64,000 bases of DNA, from NCBI RefSeq assembly GCF_009914755.1, contig NC_060941.1; one strand, written 5' to 3'. Positions 41,805-45,560 of this stretch are shown here, in pieces. Source of the DNA: the human T2T-CHM13v2.0 reference genome, Homo sapiens. A program made the position numbers and the translations under genes. The notes beneath the pieces were generated by a model. It made no database searches. It was not told the DNA's origin and saw only the letters and a program-made list of their open reading frames with translations. How positions within the stretch are numbered: the stretch's first letter is position 1; each line of letters opens with the position of its first letter.

Positions 41805-42342
41805 TTCTTTTTTAAATTATACTTTAAGTTCTAGGGTACATGTTCACAATGTGCAGGTTTGTTACATATGTATACATGTGCCATGTTGGTGTGCTGCACC
41901 CGTTAACTCGTCATTTACATTAGGTATATCTCCTAATGCTATCCCTCCCCTCTCCCCCCACCCCACAACAGACCCCGGTGTGTGATGTTCCCCTTCCTGT
42001 GTCCATGTGTTCTCATTGTTCAATTCCCACCTATGAGTGAGAACATGCGGTGTTTGTTTTTTTGCCCTTGCGATAGTTTGCTGAGAATGATGGTTTCCAG
42101 CTTCATCCATGTTCCTACAAAGGACAAGAACTCATCCTTTTTTATGGCTGCATAGTATTCCATGGTGTATACGTGCCACATTTTCTTAATTCAGTCTATC
42201 ATTGATGGACATTTGGGTTGGTTCCAAGTATTTGCTATTGTGAATAGCGCCACAATAAACATACATGTGCATGTGTCTTTATAGCAGCATGATTTGTAAT
42301 CCTTTGGGTATATACCCAGGAACAGGATGGCTGGGTCAAATG
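41805..42342 (-). mobile_element. 5'-truncated L1PA 3' end
   Basis: ttatactttaagttctagggtacatg...; TSD taaac(ct/tg)cagtttctt at 41789-41804 and 42343-42358. Confidence 0.95.
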
Positions 42343-42452
42343 TAAACTGCAGTTTCTTAATCTGTTAAATAGGGAGAAGTGTAATAGCCTGAGCTGGTAT
42401 GCCTTGGGCTGCTGGCACATCAGCAAGTGCAAAGAGGTTTGGCCATTGGAGG

Positions 42453-43479
42453 TTTTTCTTTGACTGTCCTAAATTGTTTCTTAGGTGTGAATTTTACAAA
42501 CATTACTTATATTAGCGGTAACGGTGGAGCCAGAGAGTATTGCACCTTCTCCAAGCTGCACGGCGAGAACCACTAATAGTGTGGTGGAACTTACGGCCCT
42601 TTCCAAGGCCACAGCTCTTTCAGCCTGCAGCTATCAGCCCATTCATCTTCCTGTGCTTGTGGACTGGTGTGGTGATTCACAGGGTGTCAGGATTTCTTCT
42701 GACAGCTTTATGGAATGTATCAATGAGGATAACCTCAAAAAATTTGTATGAGGAATCTTTACCAACCCAGTGAGAATTCAGGCCTCTTAGAGGCCCACAG
42801 TAGCATCCAGCTCACTCCTCTGCAATGAACCGAAGGCTTCGAGCAAACTTTAGCTGGTTAACACCAGGATGGACAGGCTTGCTGTAAGTTGCACCCGTAG
42901 GAACTGGGTGTTTTCCACCACCATGGCGCACGTGAATCCTATATATAATGTAACCTGACTTGGCCTTCTATCCCAGTCCATGCGCTTTGTATCTGACTTG
43001 AGGGATGGGAAAGAACCCAGAAGAGAGAGTCACACTAAGCGAATGTTTCAGAATGAATGGAAATGTTGTCTTTGACAAACACTCCTAAGAGGCCAGGGGA
43101 AATAACTGAAAGGGTTTTACTGAAATGGGTCCAGTTAAACAACCCATTATGGTACTATATGTTTTTGCTAACATGTCTGTCCACTAGCCTGAAAACTCCT
43201 TTAGTCTTCTCATGTCCTGTAACTTTGCTTGGCCTTGTAACTCTCAGAAGAAAGTGCATTCTTCTCAGTCCACATTGTGGGCTACTCAAACAATTAAAAG
43301 TTGGAATTCCCAGGACCGGTCCTTAGCCCCTTTTCTTCTGGTGCTCTTGTAACCTTCCTTGGCCTTATAACCTTTAGAAGAAACTGCATTACATCAGACT
43401 GCTTCTTCCTCCGTGGCTCCTGGATGTCTTTGTGTGTACCCATCTTGGCTTACTGGATGGCTGCCGCCAGATGGAAAGG
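42453..43479 (-). pseudogene. RPL15P21: Ribosomal protein L15 processed pseudogene, internally rearranged
   Basis: The minus strand has the 5' UTR and MGTHKDIQEPRRKKQSDVMQFLLKV (ATG at 43441-43443). The body (42512-~42990) reads ...[10 protein letters not shown]...[22 protein letters not shown]...NTLWLHRYR*, intronless with several in-frame stops. The 3' UTR and A-tail remnant are at 42453-42461, and the TSD is ggccattgga (42441-42450)/ggccgttgga (43478-43487). The parent call is firm; the P-number is from memory. Confidence 0.92.
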
Positions 43480-44603
43480 CCGTTGGAATTACTGAAATGC
43501 AGAAATGCTCTGTGCCAACTGGCAAACAGCCACCATCAAAGCCCCTCTTCCTGCACCCCTTGCCCACTGCCTCCTGATCGCCTTGGCTGCATTGGCTGCA
43601 GGTTTCCTCACCCGGACTCCCATCAGCATCAGCTAAAGTTTCACATCTGGTCCAGATGCCTTGTGACACGGCATCCTTGTTGTCGTTATCAAGGTCATTT
43701 TTGAGTCCTCAGTACCTTGGCCGTGCCCATGGCTAAATGACATCGATGCCCTTGGGGAGAAGCATCACCCACCTGATGAGTTAGTGGTTGTTTACACTCT
43801 CTACAAACAAAAAGAAAGGTGATTTTTAGATTTTTCCATCTGACTCCTTGTTTTTGGCCAGCTGGGTGGGGTCAAGGTCAGATTTTGGCTGTGAGTGTCT
43901 ATTAACACGTGCACTTTTGCTTCACAAATGGAGGAAAAACCTGTTAATGGTAGAGCCTTTGGATAATTCAGGCAAGGATTAGACTGAAGATGACCTTGAC
44001 TTTGGAGATAATGAAATTTAATTATGCAAATACAATTGGAACACTGAAAGCACATAAGTAAAATTGGTTTTGAGCACCCAACTCACTCTTTATGTGGTGA
44101 CCACTGGCGGGATTGTGATTTAAGCTAGGTAGGCTGTGGGCTATTCACATAAAGAGTATCAGTGAGACTGTAGTTCTTTTCAAAGATCTTGTTGATTTCT
44201 CTGTTCATGTATTGCAAATGACTGAAGACTTGTTCCATGTTTTCTCTCTCCTCCAGAAGTGATTTTTAAGATCTTTTAATGCCTAGGGCATGTTCATTCA
44301 TTCAATAAACAGTTTTTGAGGCTTTACTCTGTGCCAGACATTTGTACTAATTGCTGGGAACAAAGGCAGAAAACCATATTTACTAAAGGAGTTTTCAGGC
44401 TAGTAACTAGACATGTTAACAAAAAATACATAATACCATAAATGCGTTGTTTTACTGGACATCTTTCAGTCATTTCCCTGGCCTCTTAGGAATGTTTGTC
44501 AAAGACAACATTTCCATTCTTTCAGAAACATTTGCTTAGAGTGACTCTCTCTTCTGGTTTCCCTTCCATTTCTCAGGTTGTTTCTTCTCAATTGTGGGCT
44601 ACT

Positions 44604-44974
44604 TGTATTAGTCAGTTCTCACACTGCTGATAAAGACATACCCAAGACTGGATTATTAATGAGGAAAAAGAGGTTTAAAGGATTCACAGTTCTACATGCT
44701 CAGGGAGGCCTCACAATCATGCTGGAAGGCAAAAGGCAAGTCTTACATGGTGGCAGACAAGAGAGAATGAGAACCAAGTGAAAGGGGTTTCCCCTTATAA
44801 AACCATCAGCTCTCGTGAGACTTATTCACTACCATGAATAAGTATGAATAAGTATGGGGGAAACCGCCCCCATGATTCAATTATCTCCCACTGGGTCCCT
44901 CCTACAACATGTGGGAATTATGAGAGCTACAATTCAAGATGAGATTTGGGTAGGGACACAGACAAACCATATCA
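44604..44974 (-). mobile_element. THE1 (THE1B/C-like) solo LTR
   Basis: tgtattagtc...ccatatca termini; 5-bp TSD ctact/ctatc. Confidence 0.92.
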
Positions 44975-44979
44975 CTATC

Positions 44980-45560
44980 CAAACAATTAAAAGTCGGAAT
45001 TCCCCAGGACCTGTCCTAAGCCTTTCTCTTCTCATGCTCTGTGCTATTCCTAGAACATTTCTTTCACTTCCATTGCTTTAATTACCATTGCTGTGCCAGT
45101 CTCTTAAGAGCAACCCTCTCTTCCAGAGCAATGCGTCCAACAGCCCATTGGATGTCTCTCCTTAGACATCTCACAGGCTGCCTGAAACTCAACATGTCTC
45201 AGATAGAATTCTTGTTCTCTGAACCGCACCCACACCCTCTTTCTAGTCCAATGTCCTAGATGTTTTGTTAATGACATTACTGTCCACCCAGTTGGTCAAG
45301 CCAGAAACCCAACAATTACCTGGCATTCCTCTCCCTATACCTCATATCCAACAAATCATCAAGTTTTGTTAGTTCTACCTCCCTCCATATCTCTGGAGCG
45401 TTTCTCCAGTGCCACAGCCACCACGCCTGTCTAAGACCTCACCGTCTCGTACCTGGGTGGGGTAATGTTCTGGTGTTTCTAGCTCCACTGTTTCTCCCCT
45501 GCAGGCCTTCTTCCACATGGCAGATGTGGTGATCTGCTTCAATTGTAGATCTGATTACGT
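44980..45560. mobile_element. L2 fragment
   Basis: ttggatgtct...aaactcaacatgtc...ccacccagttggtcaagccagaaacc...ttctacctcc L2 motifs. Confidence 0.65.

What the first reader, a model, noticed from the sequence alone, without database searches (positions are those of the whole stretch)
42991..43390. RPL15 retrocopy contains a multi-template patchwork of locally copied DNA
Seen: the retrocopy has both ends and a TSD, but codons ~26-45 are missing. In mRNA direction the 5' piece (to MQFLLKV, ~43370) jumps to a ~21-nt re-copy of the YKAKQGY segment (43349-43369). Next is a copy of flanking DNA from 44584-45040 (43261-43347), then a second copy of the fused RPL15 junction (43205-43260, offset 130 bp), then a ~210-bp inverted copy of 44382-44579 (42996-43205). 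The RPL15 body resumes at ~42990. That is at least five junctions in ~400 bp, all templated from within 2 kb. Inference: this is a fixed fossil of serial template switching (FoSTeS/MMBIR or polymerase-theta-type repair), during or after L1-mediated insertion. Standard annotation would probably show only a truncated pseudogene.
Basis: partly seen in the sequence, partly recalled or inferred. Interest (0 to 1): 0.8.

Follow-up and report, generated by a model that had tools for sequence, protein, structure and literature searches.

The report
Patchwork DNA-repair scar inside RPL15 pseudogene
An old, dead copy of the ribosomal protein gene RPL15 lost 59 bases and gained about 380 bases stitched from itself and from DNA 1-1.6 kb away; it is a well-preserved scar of error-prone break repair, of a kind already known.

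Summary
RPL15P21 (minus strand, 42461-43479) is a full-length processed pseudogene with a poly(A) remnant and a 10-bp target-site duplication.

mRNA bases 117-175 are replaced by six blocks (42996-43369):
- a 21-nt re-copy of mRNA 199-219;
- 87 nt copied from 44582-45040;
- a 56-nt second copy of the junctions just formed;
- 210 nt copied in inverted orientation from 44382-44578.

An eight-block model built from the parent mRNA and the local donor explains all 1019 nt at 89.2% identity. A search of the whole T2T genome finds the patch nowhere except at the local donor, so it is not a dispersed repeat. The copies differ by about 12%, so it is not an assembly artefact.

- The copy matches the empty site of a 371-bp LTR-type repeat now sitting in the donor, so the event predates that insertion.
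- The two donor blocks abut within 3 nt in the donor but lie in opposite orientations in the patch.

Best reading: one ancient break repair with serial template switches at 0-2 nt microhomology. It probably happened after retrocopy insertion, but the timing is unresolved. This is a new example of a known kind, with no sign of function.

The parts
42441..42450 (.). Left copy of the retrocopy's 10-bp target-site duplication (GGCCATTGGA)
   Evidence: local alignment of the two flanks, 9 of 10 identical; 22 of 20000 random placements do as well.
42453..42460 (-). Remnant of the poly(A) tail (T-rich on the plus strand), directly after the last mRNA base (708 = 42461)
42461..42995 (-). R3: RPL15 cDNA, mRNA 176-708 (codon 45 to the stop, plus the short 3'UTR)
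   Evidence: 42461-42988 = mRNA 181-708, 89.8%, ungapped. extends it to mRNA 176; 478 matches, 55 mismatches.
42996..43205 (+). A': inverted copy of donor 44382-44578
   Evidence: I1, I2; 172 matches, 23 mismatches, 17 gap columns; whole-genome E = 1e-47 and no other locus.
43205..43260 (-). J': second copy of two already-formed junctions. It holds about 14 nt of the far end of donor block B (45027-45040), mRNA 199-219 and mRNA 97-116
   Evidence: (D3, D6), (51 of 61 with flanks; 46 of 56).
43261..43347 (+). B': direct copy of donor 44582-44603 + 44980-45040, which is the empty site of the LTR-type repeat now in the donor
   Evidence: D1; alignment with a 376-nt gap exactly at the repeat plus one 5-bp duplication; 74 matches, 7 mismatches.
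43349..43369 (-). j1: 21-nt re-copy of mRNA 199-219. It spans the exon 2/3 junction, and the same bases are still present in R3 at 42950-42970
   Evidence: (exon boundary at mRNA 214/215).
43370..43479 (-). R5: RPL15 cDNA, mRNA 7-116 (5'UTR to codon 25)
   Evidence: 86.4%, ungapped.
43478..43487 (.). Right copy of the target-site duplication (GGCCGTTGGA)
44382..44578 (+). Donor block A, unique DNA
44582..45040 (+). Donor block B, now split by the repeat at 44604-44974 (5-bp duplication CTACT 44599-44603 / CTATC 44975-44979)

Best explanation
A full-length RPL15 retrocopy was inserted by the L1 machinery. Later, but before an LTR-type repeat landed in the nearby donor, it suffered a break between mRNA positions 116 and 176. 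The break was closed by one error-prone, synthesis-dependent repair event. In that event the 3' ends repeatedly annealed at little or no homology, copied a stretch, dissociated and annealed elsewhere.

My reconstruction is inference throughout.
1. The end carrying the 5' part of the retrocopy first copied 21 nt from the other broken end (j1).
2. It then copied the donor from 45040 down to 44582.
3. The end carrying the 3' part copied the same donor strand from 44578 down to 44382.
4. That end then copied 56 nt of the first end's new tail, which produced J'. This is the only template on which those two junctions already existed.
5. It finally re-annealed at the tip of that tail by a TT/AA overlap and copied back through B', j1 and R5, closing the break.

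The scar has no apparent function.
For: SHOWN
- An eight-block model made only of parent mRNA and local donor pieces accounts for all 1019 nt. There are 887 matches in 994 aligned positions (89.2%), and the largest indels are 12 and 6 nt.
- The patch has no other match in the 3.1-Gb genome.
- Among the other RPL15 retrocopy loci returned, none matches the patch. They match only query positions 18-131 and 508-1049.
- j1 spans the exon 2/3 junction, so it was copied from cDNA and not from the gene.
- J' repeats two junctions base for base (116|199 and 219|donor 45040), so it was copied after they existed.
- B' matches the donor with the 371-bp repeat and one 5-bp duplication removed exactly. That repeat is a high-copy element: 10767 first-look candidates, 40 scored, and the 39 others are 85-88% identical, almost all end to end.
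- The donor blocks end at 44578 and 44582, 3 nt apart, in opposite orientation.
- Strict microhomology at the five unique junctions is 0, 2 (AC), 1-2 (A/AA), 1 (A, next to a shared AAAGG) and 0 nt.
- The target-site duplication and the full 5' end are intact.
- Divergence of the three copy pairs is 23 of 195, 7 of 81 and 10 of 56. By my hand chi-square this is not heterogeneous (p about 0.25), so a single age fits.

FROM PRINT (passages read)
- Multi-part templated insertions with microhomology are described for MMBIR-type events (PMC8421209).
- Templated insertions copied from adjacent or kilobase-distant sequence are described for polymerase theta (PMC7454005).
Against: - Two junctions (116|199 and donor 44578|mRNA 176) have no strict microhomology, only near-matches (GGG then T/C; GG then T/C). 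Priming there is not explained by annealing.
- The tracts of 56, 87 and 210 nt are longer than the 2-35 bp or 5-15 bp reported for polymerase-theta insertions. The templates lie 1.0-1.6 kb away, further than the 100 bp used to define MMBIR templated insertions.
- The 'collision' explanation for the shared donor breakpoint is untested. A nick or break in the donor fits equally well.
- Timing: per-lineage non-CpG divergence of the copy pairs is 36 in 648. The retrocopy has 40-51 in 588. The ratio is 0.64-0.82, with p = 0.42, 0.10 or 0.04 depending on how many retrocopy differences are assigned to the parent lineage. An origin at insertion is therefore not excluded.
- A single event cannot be proven from one genome.
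Confidence: 0.68

Rival explanations
1. The mosaic arose during the L1-mediated insertion itself. The reverse transcriptase (ORF2p), or a host polymerase working on the integration intermediate, left the RPL15 mRNA at about position 176. It copied nearby genomic DNA on both strands and then returned to the same mRNA to finish the 5' end.
For: - Divergence does not exclude the same age: p = 0.42 when the 11 non-CpG sites shared with 3 or more other retrocopies are assigned to the parent lineage.
[quoted passage not shown] ORF2p is reported there to extend DNA ends on DNA templates (PMC11702581, passages).
- A 'templated insertions' category also exists among tumour L1 insertions (bioRxiv 10.1101/2024.08.27.596794, figure-legend passage).
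Against: - The first-strand cDNA is the window's plus strand. On it J' is made before the junctions it copies exist. This model therefore needs the same two jumps (donor 45040 to mRNA 219, and mRNA 199 to 116) to happen twice at identical bases, or an extra slip during second-strand synthesis.
- The patch is internal to a retrocopy with an intact 5' end and a clean target-site duplication. The reported cases are attributed to processing of the reciprocal DNA end before ligation.
- The skipped mRNA stretch shows no unusual structure that would make a reverse transcriptase jump: z = -0.09, and 84 of 200 shuffles fold at least as well.
- With no parent-lineage correction, the copy pairs look younger than the retrocopy (p = 0.04).
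Confidence: 0.16
2. The structure was built by several independent mutations spread over time. For example: a contiguous A-B copy was inserted into the retrocopy, block A was later inverted, and a separate 56-bp duplication followed.
For: - Inverting the stretch 'J' plus A'' would restore a contiguous A-B copy (my reasoning). This would also explain why the two donor blocks share a breakpoint.
- J versus J' is nominally the most diverged pair (10 of 56, against 23 of 195 and 7 of 81).
Against: - It needs at least three rare events within 400 bp, with one inversion breakpoint falling exactly at the A|B boundary.
- The differences in divergence among the pairs are not significant (hand chi-square counts, p about 0.25).
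- J' sits exactly between the two donor blocks, which a single switching series explains directly.
Confidence: 0.13
3. The patch is an ordinary transposable-element insertion or dispersed repeat, or it is an assembly artefact.
For: - No repeat-consensus library was available here, and the genome search is insensitive to very old repeats (caveat printed).
- A short piece just upstream of donor block A (44293-44355) does have weak matches on two other chromosomes.
Against: - The whole-genome search returned only the patch itself and the local donor pieces: 3 matches from 2 first-look candidates.
- The patch contains RPL15 cDNA pieces and repeated junctions, which no transposable element would carry.
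- The copies are 8.6-17.9% diverged, so they are not a recent mis-join.
- RefSeq's curated pseudogene record has the same two-block layout (hub annotation).
Confidence: 0.03

Closest known systems
Microhomology-mediated templated insertions (MMBIR / FoSTeS-type complex events)
   Same: The insertion is made of several parts copied from nearby templates in direct and inverted orientation, and the junctions have little or no homology. Multi-part examples with ordered template switches are described in PMC8421209 (passages and figure legends read).
   Different: That work defines the events by inverted templates within 100 bp and read-length insertions. Here the templates lie 1.0-1.6 kb away, the tracts reach 210 nt, and one tract re-copies junctions made earlier in the same event. 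This case is a fixed germline event, old enough for its copies to have diverged by about 12%.
Polymerase-theta-mediated end joining with templated insertions
   Same: The 21-nt j1 block is copied from the opposite side of the break and kept there as well. The final closure fits annealing of two 3' tips by 2 nt. Both are textbook features. PMC7454005 (passages) reports templates adjacent to the ends or many kb away.
   Different: Reported insertion sizes are 2-35 bp and 5-15 bp. The blocks of 56, 87 and 210 nt are well above that. Dependence on the enzyme cannot be tested on a fossil.
Short-range template-switch mutations in primate genomes (Loytynoja and Goldman model)
   Same: A local inverted copy replaces the original sequence in one event, and it shows up as a cluster of changes (PMC5453318 and PMC7954356; titles and abstracts seen in the search listing only).
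   Different: Those events are described as short-range, with a single excursion and return. Here there are five unique junctions, two templates and a scale of hundreds of bases.
Non-canonical L1 insertions (twin priming; insertions with templated genomic DNA)
   Same: The host element is an L1-mobilised processed pseudogene. [quoted passage not shown]
   Different: No part of the RPL15 sequence is inverted, so twin priming is not met. The patch is internal rather than at the 5' junction.

Membership tests
L1-mediated processed pseudogene | Intronless copy of the spliced mRNA | tested here: met
   R3 crosses the exon 3/4 junction without a gap. j1, j1' and R3 all cross the exon 2/3 junction at mRNA 214/215.
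L1-mediated processed pseudogene | Poly(A) tail at the 3' end and flanking target-site duplication | tested here: met
   An 8-nt A-rich remnant lies at 42453-42460. The 10-bp duplication is 9 of 10 identical, and 22 of 20000 random placements do as well.
Templated-insertion repair scar (MMBIR / FoSTeS / synthesis-dependent end joining) | Every inserted block has a template nearby, in either orientation | tested here: met
   The eight-block model covers all 1019 nt at 89.2% identity. All templates lie within 1.7 kb.
Templated-insertion repair scar (MMBIR / FoSTeS / synthesis-dependent end joining) | Microhomology at the switch points | tested here: inconclusive
   Strict overlaps at the five unique junctions are 0, 2, 1-2, 1 and 0 nt, with near-matches beside three of them. 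About 11% drift since the event blurs the ancestral state.
Templated-insertion repair scar (MMBIR / FoSTeS / synthesis-dependent end joining) | All junctions formed in one event | not testable with these tools
   Only one genome is held. Equal divergence of the copy pairs is compatible with one event but does not prove it.
Polymerase-theta end joining | Short templated insertions (2-35 bp in the cited work) | tested here: not met
   j1 (21 nt) fits, but the other tracts are 56, 87 and 210 nt.
Twin priming | The 5' part of the retrotransposed sequence is inverted relative to the 3' part | tested here: not met
   All four RPL15-derived pieces are on the minus strand.
Dispersed repeat / transposable element insertion | Multiple copies elsewhere in the genome | tested here: not met
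   One search returned 3 matches, all local. One search shows donor block A matching only A'. No repeat-consensus library was available.

The most novel reading that the evidence does not exclude
The patch is a germline fossil of L1 ORF2p (or its integration complex) switching back and forth between an mRNA and nearby genomic DNA on both strands in the middle of making a full-length retrocopy. If so, the DNA-templated synthesis recently seen in cell culture also shaped fixed primate pseudogenes, and similar internal patches in other retrocopies could be mined to map it.
Probability: 0.15. Interest if true: 0.5.

Novelty: new member of a known kind. Interest (0 to 1): 0.3.

Why it matters
The scar sits in neutral DNA and nothing suggests a function. 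Its value is as a clean, fully resolved natural example of multi-step template switching.
- Every base can be traced to a template.
- The event is bracketed in time by two retroelement insertions: the retrocopy before it and the LTR-type repeat after it.
- Two details constrain mechanism: the re-copied junctions, and the two donor tracts that meet at one donor position in opposite orientation. They argue that two broken ends worked on the same donor and on each other.

Retrocopies have a known 'before' sequence, the parent mRNA. A systematic scan of retrocopies for such internal patches could therefore give a germline spectrum of this repair class. It also shows that a 'two-exon' pseudogene annotation can hide a rearrangement.

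Tried and rejected
- Dispersed repeat: rejected by whole-genome searches with the patch and with the donor.
- Patch shared with other RPL15 retrocopies, or an aberrant splice form of the mRNA: rejected. None of the other loci matches query positions 132-505. The 20 other retrocopies that cover the site read straight through mRNA 116-119, apart from one with a local 12-nt gap. The 116|199 junction has no GT...AG.
- Reverse transcriptase skipping a stable hairpin in the mRNA: no support. The fold of mRNA 97-214 is no better than shuffles (z = -0.09).
- Shared derived substitutions between J and J' as a clock: uninformative. The only shared change is a CpG transition also present in 6 of 20 other retrocopies. 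An earlier hunch of a second shared change rested on a sequence I had misremembered, and the real mRNA removed it.
- Simple tandem duplication of a 130-bp unit: rejected. Only 56 nt of the unit are repeated.
- Simple inversion between the break and the A|B boundary: rejected, because R5 keeps its orientation.
- Print: the only paper in the library naming RPL15P21 is an expression list (listing only), so I found no description of this structure.
- Age of the LTR-type repeat from print: the passages read give no date for the family. The name 'THE1-type MaLR LTR' and an age of tens of millions of years are my recollection and were not tested.

Full report
**What is there**

I read 42300-45200 and mapped repeats. 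I then rebuilt the parent RPL15 mRNA from the window's own genome. A search with the pseudogene found the parent exons on contig C3 and about two dozen other retrocopies. An intact retrocopy (L005) was used to place the exon borders in L030. The joined 708-nt mRNA translates to a 204-residue protein.

Against this mRNA, the minus strand of the window gives five pieces:
- R5: 43479-43370 = mRNA 7-116, 86.4% identity.
- j1: 43372-43349 = mRNA 196-219.
- R5end': 43259-43240 = mRNA 97-116.
- j1': 43239-43219 = mRNA 199-219.
- R3: 42988-42461 = mRNA 181-708, 89.8%, ungapped. It extends to mRNA 176 at 42995.

mRNA 117-175 is absent.

The rest of the gap is local DNA:
- A': 42996-43205 is the reverse complement of 44382-44578, with 172 matches, 23 mismatches and 17 gap columns.
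- B': 43261-43347 is a direct copy of 44582-44603 joined to 44980-45040.
- 43205-43260 repeats 43334-43390, 46 of 56 identical. This includes about 14 nt of the far end of block B.

A model of eight blocks taken only from the parent mRNA and the donor aligns to the whole 1019-nt pseudogene. There are 887 matches in 994 aligned positions, and no unexplained stretch is longer than 12 nt.

The retrocopy's ends are normal. It has a near-complete 5'UTR, an A-rich tail remnant and a 10-bp target-site duplication. The duplication is matched as well at only 22 of 20000 random placements.

**Is it more than chance, a repeat or an artefact?**

- Within the window, the A'/A match has E = 3.6e-52, B'/B has E = 1.5e-12 and J'/J has E about 1e-8.
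- A search of the whole 3.1-Gb assembly with the patch returned only itself and the two local donor pieces.
- The donor returned only itself, A' and two short hits to a stretch outside block A.
- The tool warns that it scores only the best candidates and skips very common words, and I had no repeat-consensus library. A very old repeat therefore cannot be excluded formally. Nothing in the genome approaches the 88% identity of the local donor.
- The copy pairs differ at 23 of 195, 7 of 81 and 10 of 56 positions. The structure is therefore ancient, not a mis-assembly.
- None of the other RPL15 retrocopy loci carries the patch or the 116|199 junction.

First, the donor interval contains a 371-bp element (44604-44974) flanked by a 5-bp duplication (CTACT / CTATC).
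- B' matches the donor with this element and one duplication copy removed exactly.
- The element is a high-copy repeat with defined ends. There were 10767 first-look candidates and 40 were scored. The 39 others are 85-88% identical, nearly all over positions 1-371.
- I recall it as a THE1-type MaLR solo LTR, but that name was not tested.
- The copying therefore predates this insertion. The order is retrocopy, then mosaic, then LTR.

Second, blocks A and B are neighbours in the donor. They end at 44578 and 44582, with 3 nt left out. In the patch they lie in opposite orientations and are separated by J'. Two independent switch points falling within 3 nt of each other in a region of about 1 kb is unlikely by chance (my estimate, under 1%).

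**Junctions**

Read in mRNA sense, the order is:

R5 | j1 | reverse B | R5end' | j1' | reverse B-end' | A | R3

Strict overlaps at the five unique junctions:

| Junction | Strict overlap | Note |
|---|---|---|
| mRNA 116 to mRNA 199 | 0 nt | GGG followed by T/C on both sides |
| mRNA 219 to donor 45040 | 2 nt (AC) | |
| donor 44582 to mRNA 97 | 1-2 nt (A or AA) | |
| donor 45027 to donor 44382 | 1 nt | a shared AAAGG lies just beyond |
| donor 44578 to mRNA 176 | 0 nt | GG followed by T/C |

J' reproduces the first two junctions base for base. It was therefore copied from a molecule on which they already existed.

**Mechanism (inference)**

The simplest account I can build is one break in the retrocopy, repaired from both ends.
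1. The end bearing R5 has the mRNA-sense strand as its 3' tail. It annealed inside the other end's tail, copied 21 nt (j1) and let go.
2. It then primed on the donor at 45040 and copied down to 44582.
3. The end bearing R3 primed at 44578 on the same donor strand and copied down to 44382.
4. This would explain the shared breakpoint as one synthesis running into the other's entry point. A nick or break in the donor at 44579-44581 would explain it equally well.
5. The R3 end then annealed near AAAGG in the first end's new tail and copied 56 nt, which became J'. It released, re-annealed at the very tip of that tail (TT on AA) and copied back through B', j1 and R5.

Each step is of a kind described for synthesis-dependent end joining, polymerase-theta repair and MMBIR (passages in PMC7454005 and PMC8421209). 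The tracts here are longer than the 2-35 bp given for polymerase theta. The templates are further away than the 100 bp used to define MMBIR templated insertions. I therefore do not assign an enzyme.

**During or after insertion?**

- Non-CpG differences between the retrocopy and the present parent mRNA number 51 of 588.
- Of these, 11 are shared with three or more of the 25 other retrocopy loci. I dropped L029 as the same locus as L026, and L022 and L030 as the parent gene. At positions 576, 600 and 685, 21-23 of 24-25 other copies share the P21 state. Those changes belong to the parent lineage.
- The copy pairs show 36 non-CpG differences over 324 positions, which is 648 site-lineages.
- The rate ratio is 0.82, 0.70 or 0.64, with p = 0.42, 0.10 or 0.04, according to whether 40, 47 or 51 retrocopy changes are counted.
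- This leans towards a later event but is not decisive. Base composition also differs between the blocks (GC 0.37-0.50).

Structure argues more strongly against an origin at insertion.
- The first-strand cDNA is the plus strand, and on it J' precedes the junctions it copies.
- The patch is internal to a retrocopy with an intact 5' end and a clean target-site duplication.
- The skipped mRNA region has no unusual fold.

On the other side, recent cell-culture work reports L1-driven insertions, pseudogenes included, with sequence templated from nearby genomic DNA (PMC11702581, passages). I keep this rival at about 0.16.

**Comparison and verdict**

This is a processed pseudogene by all tested criteria. 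It carries a complex templated-insertion scar. It is not twin priming, because no RPL15 piece is inverted. It is not a transposable-element insertion.

The only paper in the library that names RPL15P21 is an expression list (listing only).

The class of event is known. This specimen is unusually complete and can be dated relative to two retroelement insertions. It is a new member of a known kind, of modest interest.

**What I could not do**

- No primate orthologues were available.
- There was no Dfam/Repbase library.
- I could not check GRCh38 or the pangenome.
- The supplementary figures S9 and S10 of PMC11702581, which show the closest experimental cases, were not seen.

Noticed in passing
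window 44604-44974: Solo LTR-type high-copy repeat on the minus strand relative to its family, with a 5-bp target-site duplication. It carries an internal 10-bp tandem duplication (ATGAATAAGT twice, about 44836-44855). The family name (THE1-type MaLR) is recalled and was not tested.
   Followed up: partly
window 43113-43124 (inside A'): 12 extra bases relative to the donor lie next to a repeated ACTGAAA motif. This looks like a small slippage duplication in the copy, or a deletion in the donor. A 6-nt extra GTCCAC lies in B' at 43268-43273.
   Followed up: no
window 44293-44355: A short stretch just upstream of donor block A has weak matches on two other chromosomes (84% over 50-62 nt). It is probably a fragment of an old interspersed repeat, and it is not part of the copied blocks.
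   Followed up: no
L030 (parent RPL15, contig C3) mRNA positions 576, 600, 685: At these sites, 21-23 of 24-25 retrocopies, and RPL15P21 itself, agree with each other against the present parent gene. Two are third codon positions and one is in the 3'UTR. The parent gene therefore changed after most retrocopies were made, which is useful for dating RPL15 retrocopies.
   Followed up: partly
L005 (contig C6:12382479-12383188): A young RPL15 retrocopy, 99.4% identical to the parent mRNA over 706 nt, with a long uninterrupted poly(A) tail.
   Followed up: no
L008 (contig C4:131373019-131373704): This RPL15 retrocopy has a gap just before mRNA 97. At mRNA 97-116 it reads the same 20 bases as block J' of the window, then diverges from the mRNA. 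The identity is probably coincidence, because both changes recur in other copies. This locus may also have an internal rearrangement near the same region.
   Followed up: no
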